Below, one piece after another: positions 136 through 61,009 of a stretch of DNA of 64,000 nucleotides (positions within the stretch are counted from its first letter, which is position 1; each line of letters starts with the position of its first letter). Origin of the DNA: Methanothermococcus sp. Ax23 (GTDB lineage Archaea; AGJL01; Methanococci; Methanococcales; Methanococcaceae); the NCBI RefSeq assembly GCF_049075655.1, contig NZ_CP157522.1:896001-960000 (forward strand), read 5' to 3'. A program made the position numbers and the translations under genes. Under the pieces are notes generated by a model, which was given only the letters and a program-made list of their open reading frames with translations, made no database searches and was not told the origin of the DNA.

Positions 136-888
136 ATGGAGCTCGACATAATCCATTTAAAAGAAATTGATTCCACAAATAAATATTGCTATAAATTGGG
201 AAAAGATGGGAAAAGAAACTTAATTGTCGTCTCAGATGTTCAGACAGGAGGCGTTGGACGACTTGAAAGAAAATGGTATTCAGATTTTGGAGGGCTTTAT
301 TTTTCCATACTTCTAGATTTAGAAGAATTTAAAAAGGAATGTAAAAATGATAATATTGGCAAATTAAATTTTTTGGGCTCATTATCTACTTATGAAACAC
401 TAAATTGTTATTTGAAAGATTTTAAAACAGTTGGATGTATTGGAATAAAATTTCCAAATGACATAATTGTCAATGTAGAAAATAAAGATAAGAAACTATC
501 GGGAATACTGAGCGAAATAAATATAAATTATGGATTTTTAGTTTTAGGGATTGGCATAAATGTCAATAACAAAATACATGATGAAATAAAAGACATTGCC
601 ACATCATTAAAGGAATTGGAAGGAAAAGAGTTTGATAGGTTTGAAATTCTTAATAAATTTATTGATAATTTTAAAAATAACTACTATCTAAATGATGATG
701 AGGTTTTAAAGGGATATAAAAAATATTCAAAAACCATGGGCAAATATGTTAAGGTAATCACTCCGAAAGAGGAAATTAAGGGAACGGTTTTTGATATTGA
801 TTATGGTGGTATTCATTTAGCAACAAGTGATGGAATTAAACATATATCTGTTGGTGATTGTGTTCATCTGAGGAAAGATAAAAGATAA
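136..888 (+). CDS. birA: Biotin--[acetyl-CoA-carboxylase] ligase
   Basis: DSTN, QTGGVGRLERKW, KFPND and KKLSGIL motifs of the BPL family. Confidence 0.92.
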   Translation: MELDIIHLKEIDSTNKYCYKLGKDGKRNLIVVSDVQTGGVGRLERKWYSDFGGLYFSILLDLEEFKKECKNDNIGKLNFLGSLSTYETLNCYLKDFKTVGCIGIKFPNDIIVNVENKDKKLSGILSEININYGFLVLGIGINVNNKIHDEIKDIATSLKELEGKEFDRFEILNKFIDNFKNNYYLNDDEVLKGYKKYSKTMGKYVKVITPKEEIKGTVFDIDYGGIHLATSDGIKHISVGDCVHLRKDKR

Positions 889-955
889 AATAATAATATA
901 AAGTTTAGTCAATATAGCCACTAATGAAAAGAAAATAAATAAATTTGGTGAAATT

Positions 956-1573
956 GTGATTTACAAACTAAATGGTATAGGGTATGATTCAAATACTTAT
1001 TTAATAATTGGAAAAAAGAACATATTAGTAGACCCGGGAACTCCAAATACATTTAACATGTTAAAGGATGAAATTAAAAACACCGCAAAAGATATAGACT
1101 ATATTATAAACACGCACTGCCATTATGACCATGCTGGAAGCGATTATTTATATGAAGAATATTTTAATGCACCAATAATAATTCACGATTTAGAAGTTGA
1201 TGATTTGAAAAATAATACAAACACCACAGTATCCGCTTTATTTAATAGGGAATTGACGCCACCAAAGGAAATAATTCCTATAAGTGAGGTTTTAGGGGAA
1301 TTGGAAAAATACAATATAGAGATTGTAGAAACCCCTGGGCATACAAAGGGAAGTATAAGCCTAATATACAACGATAATCTCATTACGGGAGATACATTAT
1401 TTGCCTATGGCGTAGGTAGATGGGATTTTCCAACTGGAAATTTAATCGATTTACGGAGCTCAGTATCAAAACTTGAAAGAATAGCTTATGAAAGAAATAT
1501 AATAAATATACTTCCGGGACATGGAGAAAAAGGAAATTTAAGTGCATTTTCAAATGCAAAACTGTTTTTATAA
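956..1573 (+). CDS. MBL-fold metallo-hydrolase
   Basis: THCHYDH motif, TPGHT, GDTLF, LPGHG. Confidence 0.9.
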   Translation: MIYKLNGIGYDSNTYLIIGKKNILVDPGTPNTFNMLKDEIKNTAKDIDYIINTHCHYDHAGSDYLYEEYFNAPIIIHDLEVDDLKNNTNTTVSALFNRELTPPKEIIPISEVLGELEKYNIEIVETPGHTKGSISLIYNDNLITGDTLFAYGVGRWDFPTGNLIDLRSSVSKLERIAYERNIINILPGHGEKGNLSAFSNAKLFL

Positions 1574-1594
1574 CTATAAAATATATTAAGTGAT

Positions 1595-2263
1595 ATGATG
1601 TTCTCTGCATTGATACCAGTTTCACCGCTAAATACAGTAAAATCCAGATTAAAAAACTTTTTAACACCAGAAGAAAGAGTAGATTTAATAAAAAACATGC
1701 TTTTAGATGTCCATAGTAGCGTTAAATCAGTATGTGATAAGGTATATGTTGTAAGTAAAGATGAAGAAATGCTCGAATTCTCAAAAAAACATGGGATAAT
1801 AGCAATACCTGAAAGAGAAGATATTAAAGGACTCAATGAAGCAATAGCTTATGCTTTTGAACATATAAAAGAAGATGCTGTTATGATAGTTCCTGCTGAT
1901 ATTCCCTTGATTAAAGAGGATGATTTGAGGGAGGTTGTAAAAAAATTGGATGAGAGCTCCGTAATAATGTGCCCATCAAGAGGAGGGGGAACAAATTTAC
2001 TTCTCCTAAATCCAAAGGATGTTATTAAAACACGGTATGAAGGATTCAGTTTTTTAAAACATATTGAGGAATGCGAAAAAAATAATTTAAAGACAATAAT
2101 TTATCCATCCTTTTATATTTCAATAGATATAAACACCGTTGAAGATTTAGGAGAAATTCTTATTCACGGAAAAGATACGAATACCTATAAGTATTTAAAG
2201 AGTTTGGGGATATCTGTTCTTCCAAAGCATTCATCTGCTGGAAGATTTGAAGTTATACGATAA
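1595..2263 (+). CDS. cofC: 2-phospho-L-lactate guanylyltransferase (F420 biosynthesis)
   Basis: KSRL, ADIPL, GGGTN and DINTVEDL motifs. Confidence 0.92.
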
Positions 2264-2338
2264 ATTATTATTGTAATTGTTAATTATTAATCATTAGTTA
2301 TTGTTTATTTTTATCTTTTTTACCAAGGTGGTGATAAT

Positions 2339-2620
2339 ATGGTAGTTGCAGAAGTTAGTATAATACCGTTGGGAGAAGGTCCAAGCGTATCTAAATATGT
2401 TAAAAAGGCATTAGGGGTTTTTAAGAAGTATAATTTAAAAATAGAACCTTGTGCAATGGGAACAATATTAGAAGGGGATTTAGATGAAGTATTAAAAGCA
2501 TTTAAGGAAGCACATGAAGAAGTATTAAAGGATACAACAAGAGTAGTGAGCTCACTAAAAATTGATGAAAGAAAGGACAAGGAAAATACAATAGAAAGAA
2601 AATTAAATGCCATCAAATGA
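2339..2620 (+). CDS. MTH1187/YkoF-family thiamine-binding protein
   Basis: AEVSIIPLG..SVSKYV, AMGTILEG, KIDERKDK; GGTGGTGA RBS. Confidence 0.88.
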   Translation: MVVAEVSIIPLGEGPSVSKYVKKALGVFKKYNLKIEPCAMGTILEGDLDEVLKAFKEAHEEVLKDTTRVVSSLKIDERKDKENTIERKLNAIK

Positions 2621-2850
2621 GGTAATAAAAGCATTTTGCCGAGTGAGATTATTTTAACAGATTTTAATAAGCTTCTAATATTCTAGAATGGTATAAAAAT
2701 ACCCAAAATGATGTTGTAAGGCGAAGAGAGAATCAAATCGAAGATATATGGAAATTTTTAAATAGTTTTTATTTTTTAAGGAATATTTTAATATAAATTT
2801 TGTATATTTTATATTAATAAGTTGATATTGCATATTTTAGTGGTGGTATT

Positions 2851-3333
2851 ATGACTCAACATATGTTGGCAGGATTAAGAGCTCTCACTGCAAAAAAACT
2901 TAGGGAAAAAGGATTAACCCATGAAGAAATTGCAAAATTGCTTAAAGTAGATAGAACAGTAATTACCCATTATTTAGCCGGTAGAATACCTGCAAAAGAA
3001 GTGGTTAAATGTGCAAAAGTTGTTGCTGAAAAGTTTTATCCAAGGGATGCAGTTCTTTTTATTAAAACTGTTTGTGATGACAAGGATATTATAAATACAA
3101 TTACGGAGACGCTTATTTCTAACAATATAGATGTTGATACAGCTATTTCCAATGAGTGTAATTTATGCAAAATATGTATAGATGTGTGCCCAACAAGTGC
3201 AATAAGTGTTGGGGATAATACAATACATATTGATAAAAATAAATGTTGTGGATGTGAATTATGTCAGGAGTTATGTCCAAAAAATGCCATATTTTTAAAA
3301 ATAATTAGGGATAGTAGGACTGAGTTAGGATAA
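2851..3333 (+). CDS. HTH domain fused to 2x[4Fe-4S] ferredoxin domain
   Basis: N-terminal HTH (LTHEEIAKLLKVDRTVITHYL); two CxxCxxCxxxCP motifs. Confidence 0.8.
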   Translation: MTQHMLAGLRALTAKKLREKGLTHEEIAKLLKVDRTVITHYLAGRIPAKEVVKCAKVVAEKFYPRDAVLFIKTVCDDKDIINTITETLISNNIDVDTAISNECNLCKICIDVCPTSAISVGDNTIHIDKNKCCGCELCQELCPKNAIFLKIIRDSRTELG

Positions 3334-3507
3334 TATATATTTGTTTTTTCATTATTTATATCAAATAATTTTCCAAATATTCTTTTTTAATATATATTTA
3401 AATTATTATTTTTATTTCTATTTGTTCATATTTTTTATTTATTTTTTATTTTAATATTTTATGATGGCGCATTCAATATATTTAATATCCATAAATTAAA
3501 TTTGTAG

Positions 3508-4672
<1,165 letters not shown>

Positions 4673-4711
4673 TAAACTATTAATTTCTTATTTTTTATTC
4701 TTTAATTTTTA

Positions 4712-5650
4712 TTAATTCAATAAAATGTATTTTTTAAAGGAAATAAAAACCTTATCTCCAACTTTTAAATCATTATCGTAATAAATGGATTTTATGGTGG
4801 AGGAGTTATTTAGCGATATGGTTAATTTTTTATAATGTCCAAAATCATACATTCCAGTGATTTCGCCAGCGAGCTCATCCTTGCTACTGGAATTATATTT
4901 TTTAACAATTATGTTATGTGGCTCCACTCCATATAATTTACCATTATATTTTATGACATTATATCCAAAGAACCTTGCAACTTTTTCATTTTTTGGATTG
5001 TTAAATATTTTTTCCTTATCTCCATAATCTACGATTTCCCCATTACTTACAAATACAATATTTTTCCCAAGCATTTTAGCCTCTAAAAAATCATGGGTAA
5101 TATGGATTATAGGTAGGAGCTCACCTATTTTTTTTAATTCATTTATAATATTCTCCTTATTGTTTATGTCAAGGGCAGAAGTAGGTTCATCTAACAGCAA
5201 TATTTTAGGGTGCAATACCAAAGCCCGAGCAAGAGCCACTCGCTGCTGTTCTCCTCCACTTAATGTAGGGGGATTACGGGACAATAATTTATCAATATTT
5301 AAAAATTCAGATATTTCTTTAATTCTTTTTTCACGCTCTAATTTTCCAAATTTTTTTAATTTTAATCCATAATCTATATTTTTATAAACTGTCATATGTG
5401 GAAATAAACCATAATTTTGAGGAACATATCCGAAATTCCTTTTTTCAGGGGGTATGTCTGTAATATCCTCTCCGTTATAATATATTCTTCCGGAATTTGG
5501 CTTTAAAATCCCTGCAATGCACTTAATAATTATAGATTTCCCTGCACCACTTGGACCAAGTAATATTGTGTAATCCTCACTTAATTTGAGATTTACATTT
5601 TTTAATTGAAATTCCTTCCAAATTTTACTGATATTTTTTAGTTCAATCAT
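4712..5650 (-). CDS. wtpC: Tungstate ABC transporter ATP-binding subunit
   Basis: GPSGAGKS, LSGGEQQR, LLLDEP; adjacent to wtpA and wtpB. Confidence 0.85.
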   Translation of the reverse strand: MIELKNISKIWKEFQLKNVNLKLSEDYTILLGPSGAGKSIIIKCIAGILKPNSGRIYYNGEDITDIPPEKRNFGYVPQNYGLFPHMTVYKNIDYGLKLKKFGKLEREKRIKEISEFLNIDKLLSRNPPTLSGGEQQRVALARALVLHPKILLLDEPTSALDINNKENIINELKKIGELLPIIHITHDFLEAKMLGKNIVFVSNGEIVDYGDKEKIFNNPKNEKVARFFGYNVIKYNGKLYGVEPHNIIVKKYNSSSKDELAGEITGMYDFGHYKKLTISLNNSSTIKSIYYDNDLKVGDKVFISFKKYILLN

Positions 5651-5729
5651 GCAGACCACATTCAGTTAATTCATTTAATTATTAGTTTTAGCAAATAAAG
5701 TAATAAGATAATCCGATTTTCTATCTATT

Positions 5730-6539
5730 TTATGAATCCCTATTGTTTTTAGATTGGAATATCCTTAGTATGGCAAATAATAATATGCTCACAACTATCA
5801 TAATTACAGCAATAGGTTTTGATGCGCTGAGTCCATATTCGTTAAACCTATCCAATATAAGCACAGGTGCAGTTTTTGGAAAGTATGCTACAATTAAAAT
5901 TGCCCCAACTTCACTAATCCCCCTGGCAAATGTAAGAATACTCCCAGAAATCAAATTATTTTTTATAAGCGGCAATGATATATTAAAAAATGTTTTTATT
6001 TGCGAAGCTCCCAAAGTTCGGGAAACATTTTCGAGCTCCTCATCAATCATGGAAAACCCATTTTTAGCACTATTTACCATAAATGGAAGTCCAGTGTATA
6101 GCATTACAACAACTATCCCCCAAAAATTATCTACAATCATAACTCCATAGTTTTTTAATACCGTTCCAATGGTAGTTCCATAAATCACCGTTAGTATCAT
6201 AATACCAATTACAGAATGGGGTATTGCCATAGGTATGTCTATTATTGCCTCAATAATGTTTTTACCATTGAACTCGTATTTTGAGAGAATATATGACAAC
6301 GGCACTCCAAATATTAGGGCTACTATTGTTGCCGTAAAAGCCGCCTTTAAACTAACTAATAGGGAGTTTATGACCTCTTTATCCGCAACAGCTGTTGAAA
6401 TATCGCCCGGATTTAATAACATGGTAATTATGGGAATGAATATAAACAAAAATATCATTACAGATATTATTAAAAAAGATACTATAAACCAATAATTAAC
6501 CATATTTTTGTTAAATGTATTCTTGAACATAATCATCAA
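5730..6539 (-). CDS. wtpB: Tungstate ABC transporter permease
   Basis: DIPMAIPHSVIG, EAA-like loop SRTLGAS, FARGISEVGA. Confidence 0.88.
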   Translation of the reverse strand: MMIMFKNTFNKNMVNYWFIVSFLIISVMIFLFIFIPIITMLLNPGDISTAVADKEVINSLLVSLKAAFTATIVALIFGVPLSYILSKYEFNGKNIIEAIIDIPMAIPHSVIGIMILTVIYGTTIGTVLKNYGVMIVDNFWGIVVVMLYTGLPFMVNSAKNGFSMIDEELENVSRTLGASQIKTFFNISLPLIKNNLISGSILTFARGISEVGAILIVAYFPKTAPVLILDRFNEYGLSASKPIAVIMIVVSILLFAILRIFQSKNNRDS

Positions 6540-6570
6540 TATAATTTTTGGTAGTTTATATTGTATATTA

Positions 6571-6603
6571 CTATATAAATATTATGTTAATTACAACTAA
6601 TTA
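6571..6603 (-). promoter_or_regulatory. Putative operator plus TATA box of wtpBC
   Basis: Minus strand TAATTA gttg TAATTA AC ATAAT ATTTATATAG. Confidence 0.45.
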
Positions 6604-6705
6604 ATCAATAAATTGGAATAAGCTCAAAACTCCTGATAGTGTAAGAATTATAGGCGGATTAAAATAATATATTCTTAAAATAGATATTTTAAAAAATAAA
6701 GGTTT

Positions 6706-7980
6706 TTATTCAATTAATTTAGAATATGCCTTTTCTGCCATTTCATAAACTTTTTTCTCATCAATATTTACCATTTTTCCATCATTTAAAACAATATTTC
6801 CATCGATTATGACTATATCTACATTCCCGTTGAATGAATAAACTAAATGGGAGTGCATATTTTCCTTTGGAATTAAATAAGGTCTATCTAAATCTACTAA
6901 AACAATATCTGCAAGAGCTCCTTCCACTAACTTACCAGCATTTAAACCAAGGGCATGAGCTCCGTTTTTTGTGGCAAAATTAAATGACTCGTTGGCATTG
7001 ACAACAGTTGGATTTAATGATATTCCTTTATGAATAAGGGAAGCTGTTTTTATCTCTTCGAAAAGGTTTAAATTGTTGTTGCTTCCGCATCCATCTGTTC
7101 CAAGGGTGATTAAAATGTCGTTTTCCATAAGTTTTGGAATTGGAGCTATTCCAGAGGCAAGTTTTAAATTGCTTATTGGGTTGTGGGATACTGCTATGTT
7201 TTTATTTTTTATAATGTTTAGTTCATCCTCTGAAAGATGGACGCAGTGGGCGGATATTACCTTTACATCATCAAAGAATCCAAAGGAATTAAGGTATTCA
7301 AAAGGTCTCATTCCGGTTTTTTCCTTTATGGTTTTTATCTCGTCCAGAGTTTCATTCATGTGAATATGTATTGGAACATCATATTCCTTAGCCATGTTAT
7401 GGGTTTCCATTAGGAGCTCCTTTGAACAGGTATATGGTGCATGAGGTCCTAACACAGGGTTTATCCTTTGGTCGTTCAGTTTTTTTATTTGTTTAATGGT
7501 CTCTTCACTTGTTTTAAGCTCTTTTTCTCTTTTTTCTTCATCAAATAAATCAATCATTCCATATGCCAAAAAGCTCCTAATCCCGGTTTCTTTTACTGCC
7601 TTAATTATTCCATCTAAATAAAAATACATGTCATTGAATGTTGTTGTTCCGCTTTTAATCATTTCTATACATCCAAGCAGAGCTCCTGCATAAACAATAT
7701 CTTCGTTTAATTTTGCCTCCATTTTCCAGATGTAATCGTTCAACCATTCCATAAGTGGCAAATCATCGGCAACTCCCCTAAAAAGTGTCATAGGTATGTG
7801 TGTATGTGTATTTACAAGTCCGGGAATTGCCATTTTATTTTTACCATCTATTATCTTTAAATCCTTTTCATTTAGGTTTTCTTTATCTATCAGATTTTTT
7901 CCTATTCTTTTTATTTTATTTCCATCAATTAATAAATCCTGTATGGTGTTGTTTATTAGAGCTCCTTTTATTAGAATCAT
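6706..7980 (-). CDS. dadD: 5'-deoxyadenosine deaminase (amidohydrolase)
   Basis: NTHTH, PHAPYT, HMNET, GTDG motifs of the MTA/SAH deaminase family. Confidence 0.82.
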   Translation of the reverse strand: MILIKGALINNTIQDLLIDGNKIKRIGKNLIDKENLNEKDLKIIDGKNKMAIPGLVNTHTHIPMTLFRGVADDLPLMEWLNDYIWKMEAKLNEDIVYAGALLGCIEMIKSGTTTFNDMYFYLDGIIKAVKETGIRSFLAYGMIDLFDEEKREKELKTSEETIKQIKKLNDQRINPVLGPHAPYTCSKELLMETHNMAKEYDVPIHIHMNETLDEIKTIKEKTGMRPFEYLNSFGFFDDVKVISAHCVHLSEDELNIIKNKNIAVSHNPISNLKLASGIAPIPKLMENDILITLGTDGCGSNNNLNLFEEIKTASLIHKGISLNPTVVNANESFNFATKNGAHALGLNAGKLVEGALADIVLVDLDRPYLIPKENMHSHLVYSFNGNVDIVIIDGNIVLNDGKMVNIDEKKVYEMAEKAYSKLIE

Positions 7981-14010: not shown

Positions 14011-14210
14011 AATGCCTATAATATAAAAAACTGACCTACTCCCACGACTAAAGTCGTGGGGTTCTTTAGTAGGGTTTAACCCTACACGGGTGGCCAAGCC
14101 CACTACCCCTATCCCCGTTTAGGAGATTCAGGGCTACCTTTTGAACATCCAACCACTACCAGCGGTAGAGTTTTCACTAACCCTACCCATAGATACTTGT
14201 ACTGGTAGCG
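14011..14210 (-). ncRNA. Predicted omegaRNA (TnpB guide scaffold plus flank-derived guide) of mini-element 1
   Basis: TATA at 14233-14240 (minus); scaffold similar to 3' end of tnpB locus at 50082-50185; boundaries approximate. Confidence 0.55.
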
Positions 14211-14354
14211 TTACTTACTATTAATCGTCTCATATTTATATTTTACTACTTACTAGCCGATATAATGTCCGCCTCTCATCCAATCTCGTAAGAGATTTTA
14301 CAAAACTATGTTTTGTATAACGATTAAAATCGTTGGCTTTCTCGGCGGTTTATC
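14031..14354 (-). mobile_element. Non-autonomous IS200/IS605-type mini-element (no ORF) with omegaRNA-like scaffold, copy 1
   Basis: Close homolog at 52051-52335; right-end hairpin CCCACGACT-AA-AGTCGTGGG ending TCAG; left end preceded by TTAC with AAAG guide; 37-bp insertion in left-end hairpin. Confidence 0.85.
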
Positions 14355-14369
14355 GTAAATATATTGATA

Positions 14370-14458
14370 TCGCTTGCGGTAGCAAGCGACCTAAAACCTA
14401 CGGTTTTAAGTTTTCCCCACTTTCGTTCGGAAAAGCAACGAAATGCGAAGCATTTCGT
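14370..14458. repeat. Cluster of four short palindromic hairpins
   Basis: TCGCTTGC-GGTA-GCAAGCGA, TAAAACC-TAC-GGTTTTA, TTTTCC..GGAAAA, ACGAAATGC-GAA-GCATTTCGT. Confidence 0.8.
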
Positions 14459-14462
14459 CTAA

Positions 14463-15053
14463 TTAATCTTTCAATTCATCAACATTTACAAGAGGAATCA
14501 ATTCAACATCCATATTTTTTAAATTTTCCTTTGCACCTTCCATTCTATCTACTATTACAAATACCTTTTCGACAACTCCTCCGTTTTTTCTAATTTCATC
14601 TACGGCTTTTGCAACACTTCCACCTGTGGTTGTAACGTCTTCCACAACAATTACTTTATCGTTTTCATTCAATGTTCCTTCAATTTTGTTTTTAGTTCCG
14701 TAATCTTTTGCCTTTTTTCTTATAATAATTAAATCTTTTTCTGTTTCAATAGATACTGCTGTGGCTATTGGAACTGAGCCTAATTCAACGCCTGCAATTT
14801 TTAAGTTTTCGTTTAATTCATCGTTTAAATAGGATTTTATCAATTGTGCAGCAGTTTTTAAAACCCTTGGGTTTGTAGTGGCTTTTTTAATATCCACATA
14901 ATAATTGCTTTTTTTTCCAGAAGCCAGAATGAATTCGCCAAATTTTACACATTGGACTTCTTTTAAAAGGGATATTAATTTGTTTTTTAATTGGAGCGAT
15001 AGTGTAGGGTCAGATTTCGTAGGGGTCTCATTCAATTGGTTTTTGCTGTTCAA
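14463..15053 (-). CDS. pyrE: Orotate phosphoribosyltransferase
   Basis: FILASGKKSNYYVD, RKKAKDYG, VVEDVTTTGGS. Confidence 0.95.
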   Translation of the reverse strand: MNSKNQLNETPTKSDPTLSLQLKNKLISLLKEVQCVKFGEFILASGKKSNYYVDIKKATTNPRVLKTAAQLIKSYLNDELNENLKIAGVELGSVPIATAVSIETEKDLIIIRKKAKDYGTKNKIEGTLNENDKVIVVEDVTTTGGSVAKAVDEIRKNGGVVEKVFVIVDRMEGAKENLKNMDVELIPLVNVDELKD

Positions 15054-50112: not shown

Positions 50113-51360
50113 TTATAAGGAATAAATCCTTATTGGGTTGCCAAGCCCACTATCCCTATCCTTTGAAGGATTCGGGACTACCTTTTTCAAAATATTCAAA
50201 GCACCATTTACATCAGCATTTATTATTAAACCACATTTAGAACAAATATATAGACCTCTATATTTTCTATTACTTTTCTTAACGATTCCACAATTACTAC
50301 ATGTTTGAGAAGTATAAGATTCATTAACCTGTTCTACTGTTATTCCATATCCTACTGCTTTATATTGTATCATCTGAATTAACTTTCCAAAAGGTATTCT
50401 GTGTAGTTTTTGATTATTTATTTTCCCTATGTTCATTGAGGTTATTCCTTTGTTCATTTCACCAATTACAATTTTTGAAACTTTATCATTCTTTGCTAAT
50501 TCTACAATCATTCTACTAACTTTATGAATATAATCTTTGACATAATTTTTTTCCTTTACTGTTAATTTTGATAATCTTTTGGAGGTTTTTAGTTTTTGTT
50601 TGGATAAAATAGACATTAGTTTTGCTTTTGTTTTGTTGAACCATCTTAATTTAGATACTAATGTTTTGCCATTGAAAATATAAGGTTGTTTTTCATTCTG
50701 TATTACTGTTGTTGCTAAATTCTTAATTCCTAAGTCAATAGCCATTACTTTTTCATTGTTAAATGTTAGTGGGGTTATTTTTTTCTTATAAATCAAATGA
50801 AGTATAAAATATCTTTTACCGTAAATATCATGCGGGACTATCTCAACTTCTTTAATTTTCATGGTATTGAGCGATAAGATTTTCGGTAATCTTATCCATA
50901 GATACTTGGACTCAATACCATGCTTTTCTTTTAGATAGTTTTTGGTTTGTTTTGAAAGAGATAATCTCAATTTATTGTCTATTATTTTGAATCCGTTCTT
51001 TTTCCATTTAACTGGAAAATGACCATCTTTTGGTTGGAATTTAGGTTTTTTAGTATGTTCGGAGCGAAGCGGAGAGCAACGAAAACCTTCGGTTTTCGTA
51101 TAATGTTTGAAAAAATTATCCCACGCTATTGAAAGTTTTTGACATACTGCTTGTGCTGACTGTGAGTGTAAGTTTTTAAACCAGAAATTGTTCTTCATTT
51201 GAACATCTATTTTGTTAGGGTTAATATTTCGTTGCATTACTTCGTAGTTAGATACATTCCATAGTTTTGATGCTGAATAGGTTAAATGGTTTAGGATTGT
51301 TAATTGTTCATTGTTTAATTGTCTTGTTATGTTCAGCGTGTGGACTCTTGAAACTTCCAA
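50113..51360 (-). CDS. tnpB: TnpB RNA-guided endonuclease with in-frame 16-aa insertion
   Basis: AIDLG, VNESYTSQTC, CSKCG, NADVNGALNI; TTG start inferred after AGGTG. Confidence 0.9.
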   Translation of the reverse strand: MEVSRVHTLNITRQLNNEQLTILNHLTYSASKLWNVSNYEVMQRNINPNKIDVQMKNNFWFKNLHSQSAQAVCQKLSIAWDNFFKHYTKTEGFRCSPLRSEHTKKPKFQPKDGHFPVKWKKNGFKIIDNKLRLSLSKQTKNYLKEKHGIESKYLWIRLPKILSLNTMKIKEVEIVPHDIYGKRYFILHLIYKKKITPLTFNNEKVMAIDLGIKNLATTVIQNEKQPYIFNGKTLVSKLRWFNKTKAKLMSILSKQKLKTSKRLSKLTVKEKNYVKDYIHKVSRMIVELAKNDKVSKIVIGEMNKGITSMNIGKINNQKLHRIPFGKLIQMIQYKAVGYGITVEQVNESYTSQTCSNCGIVKKSNRKYRGLYICSKCGLIINADVNGALNILKKVVPNPSKDRDSGLGNPIRIYSL

Positions 51361-51361
51361 G

Positions 51362-51446
51362 CTAAACACCTTTTTGATTATCATATTGTCTAATTATATC
51401 AAGTGATACTGTCCCTACAGTTTTTAATAGGTGTTTTTATCTTCAT
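51362..51446 (-). pseudogene. tnpA: Internally deleted tnpA (Y1 HUH transposase) remnant
   Basis: GGTGAT RBS + MKIKT start joined out of frame to TVGTVSLDIIRQYDNQKGV*, resembling the catalytic-Tyr helix of TnpA. Confidence 0.7.
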
Positions 51447-51688
51447 ATTTATCACCATGATTTATATGCGCTCTACTCATATATATCTTAAAATAATTAT
51501 TGATATTATTAATATCATCACCGCTTTAAAAAGCGGTGCTTTCAAATTCAATGGTAAAATATAATAAAATTATGGAATTAAAAATTTAAATTGTCTTTAA
51601 TTATATAATATATATCATTAATAGAATAAAAACATATTGATTTAAAACAGATATGAAAAAAGTTTTATTTAATAAAACAAAGGTTTTA

Positions 51689-52012
51689 TTATTTATATTG
51701 GCTTACAATATCCAATATTTCTTCCGAATTCTTTGGAATATCGGATTTATAGAATATTAACTTTAAATCCTCGGTATCTTCTGGAAGTATATCTGCTATT
51801 TTAATTGCTGTTTTTTCATCCAACCCGAGCTCGACCAAATCTTTAACGAGATTTTCTACATCTTCGGCACTCAATCGTGCAAATTTTTCTAAATAATCCA
51901 ATGCACAGCCGTGCTCATAGGATAACTCGTCAATATTTGCTTTGTCTGTCATTATCTCCTTAGCATGAGATATTGTAATATATCTCTCAGAGATTATTTC
52001 TTTTCCTATCAT
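51689..52012 (-). CDS. rpoF: DNA-directed RNA polymerase subunit F (Rpo4)
   Basis: MIGKEII, LSYE, KIADILP; after rpl21e. Confidence 0.92.
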   Translation of the reverse strand: MIGKEIISERYITISHAKEIMTDKANIDELSYEHGCALDYLEKFARLSAEDVENLVKDLVELGLDEKTAIKIADILPEDTEDLKLIFYKSDIPKNSEEILDIVSQYK

Positions 52013-52030
52013 AATAATACCCATCTTAAA

Positions 52031-52229
52031 AAAAGTATTTTGTATTAATACTGACCTACTCCAACGAGTGAACTCGTTGGGTTCTTTTAGTAGGGTTTAA
52101 CCCTACACGGGTGGCCAAGCCCACTACCCCTACCCATTAATGGGTTCAGGGCTACGCTATGCACTTCCAACCACTACCAGCGGTAGAGTTTTCACTAACC
52201 CTACCCATAGATACTTGGACTGGTAGCGT
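52031..52229 (-). ncRNA. Predicted omegaRNA of mini-element 2
   Basis: TATA at 52251-52258 (minus); covarying stems versus copy 1 and the tnpB 3' end; boundaries approximate. Confidence 0.55.
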
Positions 52230-52335
52230 TACTTACTACTAATCTTCATATATTTATATTTTACTACTTACTAGCCGATATAATGTCCGCCTCTCATCCA
52301 ACGACTGAAGTCGTTGACTTTCCCGGCGGTTTATC
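52051..52335 (-). mobile_element. Non-autonomous IS200/IS605-type mini-element (no ORF) with omegaRNA-like scaffold, copy 2
   Basis: Homolog of 14031-14354; intact left hairpin CAACGACT-TC-AGTCGTTG after TTAC..AAAG; right end TCAG. Confidence 0.87.
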
Positions 52336-52366
52336 GTAAAATAATTAATAAATATTAATAAAATAA

Positions 52367-52663
<297 letters not shown>

Positions 52664-60891: not shown

Positions 60892-61009
60892 GCCGAGGTG
60901 GCTTAGGCTGGTTATAGCGCTCGGCTCATACGGATATTCCCAAGGGGTTTTATATCTCCTTGGGTCCTGGGAAACCGAGAGGTCGGGGGTTCAAGTCCCC
61001 CCCTCGGCA
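60892..61009 (+). tRNA. tRNA-Met(CAT) with 43-nt intron at 37/38 (60931-60973)
   Basis: CTCGG-CTCATA[intron]A-CCGAG; intron hairpin CCCAAGG..CCTTGGG. Confidence 0.92.

What the first reader, a model, noticed from the sequence alone, without database searches (positions are those of the whole stretch)
52051..52335. Protein-free IS605 mini-elements that look like stand-alone guide-RNA (omegaRNA) cassettes
Seen: two copies (52051-52335 and 14031-14354) with no ORF. Each keeps a left end (TTAC target, AAAG guide, hairpin), a BRE/TATA box (GTAAAA-TATAAATA), a ~180-nt structured segment and a right end (GAAC guide, hairpin, TCAG). The 3' part matches the end of the tnpB at 50113 (GTAGCCCTGAACCC..GGGTAGGGGTAGTGGGCTTGGCCACCC vs GTAGTCCCGAATCC..GGATAGGGATAGTGGGCTTGGCAACCC) with compensatory stem changes (GTAGGG/CCCTAC vs TAAGGA/TCCTTA). 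Both also share the TTAC target motif with that element. Known: TnpB uses an omegaRNA ending at the right end plus flanking guide, and TnpA acts in trans. Inference: these are self-transcribed guide cassettes that borrow TnpB and TnpA in trans, each with its own guide (TATTAATACAAAATACTTTT; TTTTTTATATTATAGGCATT).
Basis: partly seen in the sequence, partly recalled or inferred. Interest (0 to 1): 0.82.

Follow-up and report, generated by a model that had tools for sequence, protein, structure and literature searches.

The report
Protein-free IS605 guide-RNA mini-elements
These are small protein-free relatives of a TnpB insertion sequence that carry their own promoter and a structured guide-RNA-like gene, a kind of element already described in outline but here with an unexpected extra hairpin that also sits inside the tnpB gene.

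Summary
Both window copies are real and belong to a family of 27 ORF-free elements (283-405 nt) in this 1.67 Mb archaeal genome. All 27 lie 3' of TTAC and end in TCAG. Nine tnpB-only IS elements (1381-1568 nt) elsewhere in the genome share their ends. The window tnpB is a more distant cousin.

Each mini has five parts: left end, a conserved TATA box, a 57-nt hairpin (H1), the last ~105 nt of the tnpB element, and the right end. That last stretch is a covarying RNA scaffold with a pseudoknot next to the flank.

In 3 of 4 vent metatranscriptome runs, contig depth rises sharply about 23 nt downstream of the TATA box.

The closest known RNA is Rfam HgcC, matched only below threshold. HgcC loci in relatives have the same architecture. 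PATE-borne omegaRNAs used in trans are already stated in print.

Three points go beyond that:
- H1 is also conserved, with compensatory changes, inside tnpB ORFs of three genera.
- H1-type minis occur in seven other genomes.
- This genome has no TnpA.

TnpB use of the RNA is inferred, not shown.

The parts
52051..52335 (-). Mini-element copy A (285 nt), inserted between rpl21e (52367-52663) and rpoF (51689-52024)
   Evidence: the site is unoccupied in G016 and G010
52336..52339 (-). TTAC target / presumed TAM, 5' of the left end
   Evidence: 37 of 37 elements follow TTAC
52284..52335 (-). Left end: AAAG tetranucleotide plus subterminal hairpin enclosed by CCGCC/GGCGG
   Evidence: shared with the nine tnpB-only IS
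52251..52264 (-). BRE/TATA-like box (TATAAATA at 52251-52258). It lies 22 nt upstream of the H1 base
   Evidence: conserved in 27 of 27 copies; the same 22-nt spacing is seen in minis of other genera
52172..52228 (-). Hairpin H1, the predicted 5' end of the RNA. Its inner part is homologous to a hairpin inside tnpB ORFs. Its outer stem is a different sequence but still pairs
   Evidence: RNA-library contigs stop at 52223-52228
52051..52155 (-). 3' scaffold shared with tnpB 3' ends: P1/P2, P3 with its loop in a pseudoknot, P4, and the RE hairpin P5 (52051-52084 is the right end, ending TCAG)
52031..52050 (-). Flank that would serve as the guide. It overlaps the rpoF leader
   Evidence: the flank differs at every copy; the Rfam HgcC model runs about 13 nt past GGUCAG
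14031..14354 (-). Mini-element copy B (324 nt; has the 37-nt LE insert). TTAC lies at 14355-14358 and the flank/guide at 14011-14030
   Evidence: best HgcC match at 14018-14172(-), 29.6 bits
50082..51553 (-). tnpB-bearing IS605-type element: tnpB ORF 50113-51384, TTAC at 51554-51557, tnpA 3' relic at about 51365-51425, internal H1 at 50859-50923. It is a cousin of the minis, not their parent

Best explanation
The elements are non-autonomous IS200/IS605 elements (PATEs). They descend from a tnpB element through two internal deletions. Five things remain: the TnpA-type left and right ends, an archaeal promoter, hairpin H1, and the omegaRNA scaffold.

Proposed mechanism:
1. The promoter starts a roughly 180-nt RNA at the base of H1.
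2. The RNA runs through the scaffold and the right end into the flank, which differs at each locus.
3. A TnpB encoded elsewhere binds this RNA. Candidates are the two intact cognate genes, or the window's cousin.
4. TnpB would then cut the vacated site (TTAC + flank) after an excision, so that recombination restores that copy.

Each mini would thus buy its own retention without encoding a protein.

Shown: the anatomy, copy number, covarying structure, conservation across genera, and an RNA-library depth step at the predicted start. Inferred: the strand and 3' end of the RNA, TnpB binding and cleavage, and the role of H1. My guess for H1 is a 5' stabiliser or an extra TnpB contact.

TnpA is absent here, so the family is probably immobile at present, or it depends on a transposase that arrives from outside.
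For: - The minis share their ends with nine tnpB-only IS elements.
- 37 of 37 elements follow TTAC.
- Scaffold covariation: 97.1% of cells are paired, 15 of 33 pairs changed on both sides, and 0 of 500 shuffles reach the score. Slid controls pair at 52% or less.
- Pseudoknot UGGCN/NGUCA next to the flank: three Watson-Crick states in 51 of 54 distinct sequences.
- The TATA box is conserved in 27 of 27 copies. The 22-nt TATA-to-H1 spacing recurs in minis of other genera although the sequence between differs.
- RNA-library contig depth over 52040-52231 exceeds depth over the LE/promoter part, which has the same copy number: X1 85-1595 against 21-24, X10 609-7131 against 71-81, X17 21-550 against 0. 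Contigs stop at 52223-52228.
- All 14 HgcC matches in this genome fall on minis or parent 3' ends, on the LE-to-RE strand.
- H1-type minis were seen at 7 of 7 inspected loci in 7 other genomes of two genera.
- In G029 the mini scaffold differs by one base from the resident tnpA+tnpB element's scaffold, read.
- The intact parent TnpB keeps the RuvC D/E/D motifs and the zinc finger.
- Precedent in print is given.
Against: - No TnpA is found in this genome.
- Only 2 of 9 cognate tnpB genes are intact.
- G022 and G024 hold minis but no cognate TnpB at E<=1e-40 with this query.
- The RNA evidence is weak. It comes from assembled contigs of one study of environmental relatives, which cannot show strand, ends or level. 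One of the four runs (X8) shows no step, and lower-depth contigs cross the boundary.
- The right end faces the 3' end of a convergent gene in 24 of 27 minis. The guide-RNA model does not predict this.
- Within this genome, conservation could simply reflect recent spread. Some copies are 100% identical over 217 nt.
Confidence: 0.6

Rival explanations
1. The RNA is made but acts without TnpB. It could be antisense to the 3' ends of neighbouring genes. Read on the other strand, the element could act as a hairpin-plus-T-tract terminator or 3' stabiliser for the convergent gene. Or it could be a decoy that titrates TnpA or TnpB.
For: - The RE-side gene is convergent in 24 of 27 minis (binomial p about 2.5e-5, own arithmetic on the counts).
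- By my reading of the rows, about 18 of those ORFs end within 50 nt of the RE (crude ORF calls).
- None of the 27 lies in a divergent intergenic region.
- The reverse complement of the RE is a hairpin followed by TTCTTTT.
- Gomes-Filho et al. 2015 (passages read) report a growth effect of a PATE RNA and suggest competition for TnpA.
- Minis exist in G022 and G024 without a cognate TnpB found.
Against: - The covarying parts are exactly the tnpB 3' scaffold and its pseudoknot at the flank junction.
- Avoidance of promoter regions can be explained by purifying selection against an outward-firing promoter.
- The window copy A itself is co-directional with both neighbours.
Confidence: 0.2
2. The elements are inert MITE-like debris. 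The promoter-like box, H1 and the scaffold are carried along by descent, and any transcription is incidental.
For: - No TnpA is present.
- Most cognate tnpB genes are broken.
- Many copies are near-identical.
- The copies are mosaic: 27 of 45 feature pairs show all four combinations.
Against: - The same architecture, with the same TATA-to-H1 spacing, persists in three genera while the H1 outer stem changes sequence yet keeps pairing.
- The scaffold covaries.
- The depth step lies inside the repeat, not at its edge.
Confidence: 0.13
3. H1 and the other hairpins work as single-stranded DNA structures for transposition rather than as RNA.
For: - IS200/IS605 elements move as single strands and use subterminal DNA hairpins (recalled knowledge).
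- H1 is kept both in tnpB-bearing elements and in minis.
Against: - G-U pairs are common in H1. Columns 15-69 are GU in 10 of 22 sequences and columns 42-55 in 12 of 22.
- The promoter is placed exactly at the base of H1 in two lineages.
- No internal accessory hairpin is known for this family (recalled, not searched).
Confidence: 0.07

Closest known systems
Rfam RF00062 HgcC family RNA (high-GC ncRNA of a hyperthermophilic methanogen; Klein et al. 2002, recalled, paper not held)
   Same: - The layout matches at 7 of 9 HgcC loci inspected in relatives: T[T/C]AC, LE hairpin, TATA box, about 25 nt, a structured RNA of about 130 nt, the RE hairpin, GGUCAG and then the flank, with no tnpB.
- The RE end is alignable to ours.
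- All 14 HgcC matches in this genome fall on minis or parent 3' ends.
   Different: - The best score is 29.6 bits against the gathering score of 50.
- The scaffold upstream of the RE hairpin is a different sequence.
- The HgcC 5' hairpin is not H1, and it was not found at any non-HgcC site in five genomes at 0 mismatches (one 1-mismatch site was not inspected).
PATEs that encode omegaRNAs in Geobacillus stearothermophilus (Meers et al., preprint PMC10055086; three passages read)
   Same: These are protein-free IS200/IS605 elements with LE and RE. They are stated to often encode omegaRNAs that need TnpB in trans.
   Different: - They are bacterial, and a tnpA is present in that genome.
- No own promoter or internal-ORF hairpin is mentioned in the passages I read. 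Extended Data and supplements were not seen.
Haloarchaeal PATEs and sotRNAs (Dyall-Smith et al. 2011, search listing only; Gomes-Filho et al. 2015, PMC4615843, passages read)
   Same: - A PATE-derived intergenic RNA made of fused LE and RE is expressed.
- RNAs overlap the 3' ends of IS1341-type tnpB genes.
- The authors noted the link between HgcC and the RE-like tetraloop.
   Different: - That work reports no classical BRE-TATA upstream of the sotRNAs.
- It predates the guide-RNA function.
- It describes no H1-like module.
ISDra2-type TnpB omegaRNA (structure recalled; TnpB chains 8h1j and 8exa appear among the matches)
   Same: The scaffold overlaps the tnpB 3' end and RE, has a pseudoknot adjacent to the guide, and takes its guide from the flank 3' of the RE.
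   Different: - The sequence is unrelated.
- Here a hairpin about 790 nt upstream, inside the ORF, is conserved as well, and in the minis it is fused next to the scaffold.

Membership tests
IS200/IS605 non-autonomous element (PATE) | Subterminal hairpins at both ends and no terminal inverted repeats | tested here: met
   LE and RE hairpins seen; the RE hairpin covaries (7 of 8 pairs changed on both sides)
IS200/IS605 non-autonomous element (PATE) | Insertion 3' of a fixed tetranucleotide, without target duplication | tested here: met
   TTAC precedes 37 of 37 elements. The right flanks differ and do not repeat TTAC
IS200/IS605 non-autonomous element (PATE) | No protein-coding gene, and ends shared with a protein-coding IS | tested here: met
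IS200/IS605 non-autonomous element (PATE) | A Y1 transposase (TnpA) available in the same genome | tested here: not met
   PF01797 and NF033573 give 0 matches in G000. An intact tnpA lies next to the cognate tnpB in G021, G029 and G036
IS200/IS605 non-autonomous element (PATE) | Orthologous site unoccupied in relatives | tested here: met
   G016 (flanks 95-96% identical) and G010 lack the element between rpl21e and rpoF. The junction sequence is not an exact empty site
TnpB omegaRNA | Derived from or overlapping the tnpB 3' end plus RE | tested here: met
TnpB omegaRNA | Conserved secondary structure | tested here: met
TnpB omegaRNA | Transcript continues past the RE into the flank (the guide) | tested here: inconclusive
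   Repeat boundaries break the contigs at 52051. One low-depth contig crosses the boundary. The HgcC model extends about 13 nt past GGUCAG
TnpB omegaRNA | Bound by TnpB and directs TAM-dependent DNA cleavage | not testable with these tools
   Needs pull-down and cleavage assays
Rfam HgcC (RF00062) | Score at or above the gathering threshold (50 bits) | tested here: not met
   Best score 29.6 bits; 0 of 14 matches reach the cut-off
Classical MITE | Terminal inverted repeats and a target-site duplication | tested here: not met
   The ends are asymmetric (GATAAACC... at the left...GGTCAG at the right) and there is no duplication

The most novel reading that the evidence does not exclude
In this clade the guide RNA has two conserved modules. 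H1 lies about 790 nt upstream of the scaffold, inside the tnpB ORF. Promoter-bearing minis are an old lineage spread across the class in which the two modules sit side by side. Together with HgcC-type cassettes, they would be guide-only selfish elements that live off resident TnpB and can outlast both TnpA and most tnpB copies. If H1 is a true TnpB-binding or RNA-maturation module, then part of the omegaRNA system of full-length elements is encoded in the middle of the gene.
Probability: 0.3. Interest if true: 0.75.

Novelty: new variant of a known kind. Interest (0 to 1): 0.55.

Why it matters
It gives a likely function and origin to an orphan RNA family. HgcC-like RNAs of thermophilic methanogens would be guide-RNA cassettes carried by protein-free transposons.

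It also shows that such cassettes carry their own promoters and persist across genera.

Finally, it points to a conserved RNA hairpin inside tnpB that current omegaRNA models do not include. If H1 matters for TnpB loading or RNA stability, it bears on how compact TnpB editors from thermophiles are designed. It also bears on how guide-only elements parasitise RNA-guided nucleases.

Tried and rejected
- Kissing interaction between the H1 internal loop (CCAAG) and the P3 loop (CUUGG). Rejected: the loop base varies (A, C or U) in minis of other genera while the partner stays constant.
- Conserved internal TATA box upstream of H1 inside tnpB. Not seen when comparing homologues by eye.
- Generalising 'ORF-internal hairpin becomes the mini's 5' hairpin' to HgcC. 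At 0 mismatches the HgcC 5' hairpin pattern hit only HgcC loci in five genomes. One 1-mismatch site (in G027) was not inspected.
- Mobile-promoter reading. Only 3 of 27 minis face a co-directional downstream gene.
- Guides matching elsewhere in the genome. One 16-mer recurs once in an AT-rich stretch, without TTAC.
- Rfam gathering and E-value scans of copy A found nothing relevant.
- The search for related loci on genome contigs failed twice because the machine gave no answer. Viral and metagenome collections were therefore not scanned.
- Klein et al. 2002 could not be read.
- Run X8 shows no depth step. Parts of the window without cover are not used as evidence.
- No complex prediction, structure prediction or protein homology job was run.

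Full report
**1. The observation**

Copy A (52335->52051) and copy B (14354->14031) lie on the minus strand. They align along their whole length except for a 37-nt insert in the left end of B. Copy A sits between rpl21e and rpoF. A tnpB gene (PF07282, PF01385) lies at 50113-51384.

The window belongs to a 1.67 Mb, 32% G+C archaeal genome in two contigs, 98.9% complete.

**2. Copy number and boundaries**

BLAST and motif scans find 37 LE+RE pairs:
- 27 minis of 283-405 nt;
- nine tnpB-bearing elements of 1381-1568 nt;
- one mini interrupted by about 1 kb.

All 37 follow TTAC, and all 27 minis end in GGTCAG. Length differences come from three optional modules: 37 nt in the LE, 30 nt in the middle and 50 nt in the RE. 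These modules are shuffled among copies, and 27 of 45 feature pairs show all four combinations.

In the sister genomes G016 (flanks 95-96% identical) and G010, the rpl21e-rpoF spacer lacks the element. By BLAST the family is absent from the 22 other genomes of the taxonomic family.

**3. Parents**

The nine long elements share the minis' LE and RE. Only two keep a full tnpB (420 and 404 aa). Seven are broken near the 5' end by a double-hairpin insertion of about 50 nt.

The intact protein has the SIDLG / IGELN / NADING RuvC motifs and two CxxC pairs. Its best matches among solved structures are Cas12f and TnpB chains.

The window tnpB is 68% identical in protein and has different end hairpins. 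It keeps about 60 nt of a tnpA 3' end.

**4. Anatomy of a mini**

- LE, about 52 nt.
- About 55 nt of mini-specific sequence holding a TATA box. The box is conserved in 27 of 27 copies.
- H1, 57 nt.
- A linker of about 16 nt.
- The last ~105 nt of the tnpB element, including the RE.

The linker still resembles the sequence that follows H1 inside tnpB. The mini therefore looks like a tnpB element with two internal deletions (my reading).

**5. RNA structure**

Copies A and B fold with z = -3.96 and -3.75.

Scaffold. I aligned 22 distinct 3' modules: minis, parents, and tnpB ends from other genera.
- 97.1% of cells pair.
- 15 of 33 pairs changed on both sides.
- 0 of 500 shuffles reach the observed percentage paired or covariation score.
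- Slid controls pair at 52% or less.

Pseudoknot. A long-range helix joins the P3 loop (UGGCN) to the last bases before the flank (NGUCA). The variable pair takes the states A-U, C-G and G-C in 51 of 54 distinct sequences, with 3 mismatches. These counts are of sequences, not independent events.

**6. H1**

The inner part of H1 is homologous to a hairpin inside tnpB ORFs, at about aa 146-170. I aligned 22 sequences: five parents, eight homologues from three genera, and nine minis.
- 92.8% of cells pair.
- 11 of 22 pairs changed on both sides.
- 0 of 500 shuffles reach the score.
- Slid controls pair at 46% or less.

G-U pairs are frequent, which fits RNA better than DNA.

Across eight intact homologues, identical-codon use at conserved residues is 0.44-0.78 through most of the gene. 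It rises to 0.75-0.89 over H1 and to 0.78-0.99 over the scaffold. There are smaller rises near aa 25-36 and aa 329-335.

In the minis the outer stem of H1 is a different sequence, but it still pairs.

**7. The same design elsewhere**

A covariance model built from eight minis finds full-length matches of 60-102 bits in seven other genomes: G036, G029, G035, G022, G021, G039 and G024. Ends of tnpB genes score about 44-60 bits, so the two groups are not cleanly separated by score.
- All 7 loci inspected show H1 fused to the scaffold, with a TATA box 22 nt upstream.
- 6 of the 7 show a recognisable LE after TTAC.
- The outer stem of H1 differs again from ours.

G029 and G036 each carry one intact tnpA next to the cognate tnpB. 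In G039 the tnpA is broken. G022 and G024 have none, and no cognate TnpB was found in them at E<=1e-40.

**8. Expression**

Only assembled contigs from four vent metatranscriptome runs of one study could be laid.
- In three runs, depth over 52040-52231 far exceeds depth over 52232-52311, which has the same copy number: X1 85-1595 against 21-24, X10 609-7131 against 71-81, X17 21-550 against 0.
- Run X8 shows no step.
- Eight listed contigs end at 52223-52228. Three lower-depth contigs cross that point.

Contigs cannot give strand, ends or level, and they come from environmental relatives. This is a hint, not proof.

**9. Known relatives**

Rfam HgcC matches this genome 14 times at E<=1. All 14 matches are on minis or parent 3' ends, and all are below threshold. 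The best is 29.6 bits at window 14018-14172(-), and the model runs about 13 nt past GGUCAG.

True HgcC (67-151 bits) occurs in 10 of 40 genomes of the class. At 7 of 9 loci inspected the layout is LE, TATA box, RNA and RE, with no tnpB.

In the library searched, only Gomes-Filho et al. 2015 holds both 'HgcC' and 'TnpB'. That paper shows an expressed PATE RNA. Meers et al. state that PATEs often encode omegaRNAs that need TnpB in trans.

**10. TnpA**

None is found in this genome.

The end chemistry still fits the IS608 rule as I recall it, unchecked. The last base of the cleavage tetranucleotide pairs with the last base of the guide tetranucleotide: TCAG with GAAC here, and TCAT with GAAA in relatives.

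**11. Context**

ORF calls here are crude (ATG start, 80 aa or more).
- The RE faces the 3' end of a convergent ORF in 24 of 27 minis.
- No mini lies in a divergent intergenic region.
- Eight of the nine parents face a co-directional ORF.

Selection against an outward-firing promoter upstream of genes would explain this. A terminator-like role for the other strand is the alternative.

**12. Verdict**

That idea is already in print in general form, and it rests on inference for the TnpB step. The TnpA part fails in this genome. The new content is the H1 module, the promoter-bearing lineage spread across the class, and the link to HgcC.

Noticed in passing
window 14366-14465; genome-wide (for example inside seven of the nine tnpB-only elements); L051 (G037): There is a family of double-hairpin modules about 50 nt long. 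They are inserted in tnpB ORFs (breaking 7 of 9), in the LE and RE of minis, in the loop of H1 in G037's tnpB, and next to copy B. A 52-nt query gives 23 hits of 40 nt or more in this genome. They recall the palindromic MJRE repeats of a related methanogen (recalled, not checked).
   Followed up: partly
window 51365-51425 (-): The window's tnpB element keeps only about the last 60 nt of a tnpA gene. This stretch is alignable to the tnpA 3' end of the autonomous element in G021. It is a relic showing that TnpA was once present in this lineage.
   Followed up: partly
genome-wide, 27 minis and 9 long elements: Orientation is biased. The RE of minis faces the 3' end of a convergent ORF in 24 of 27 cases, and none lies in a divergent intergenic region. 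Eight of the nine tnpB-bearing elements sit upstream of a co-directional ORF. In three minis the convergent ORF ends 4 nt inside the RE. There the TGA in CTGA would replace the TAA in GTAA, the complement of TTAC (crude ORF calls).
   Followed up: partly
G000:C1:1542609-1544034: One mini is interrupted by an insertion of about 1 kb between its LE part and the rest. The insert was not examined.
   Followed up: no
L087, L086 (HgcC loci) compared with L097 (H1-type mini): In the other genus, HgcC cassettes and H1-type minis share a nearly identical LE-plus-promoter region but carry different RNA scaffolds and RE ends. This suggests modular exchange between cassette families.
   Followed up: partly
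G000:C1:8381-8446, 1141773-1141807, 514122-514231, 1418293-1418382: A solo LE, a solo RE and partial fragments of the family. One partial RE lies head-to-head with a full mini.
   Followed up: no
window 60892-61009 (+): A tRNA match spans 118 nt for a 71-position model, so the tRNA probably contains an intron.
   Followed up: no
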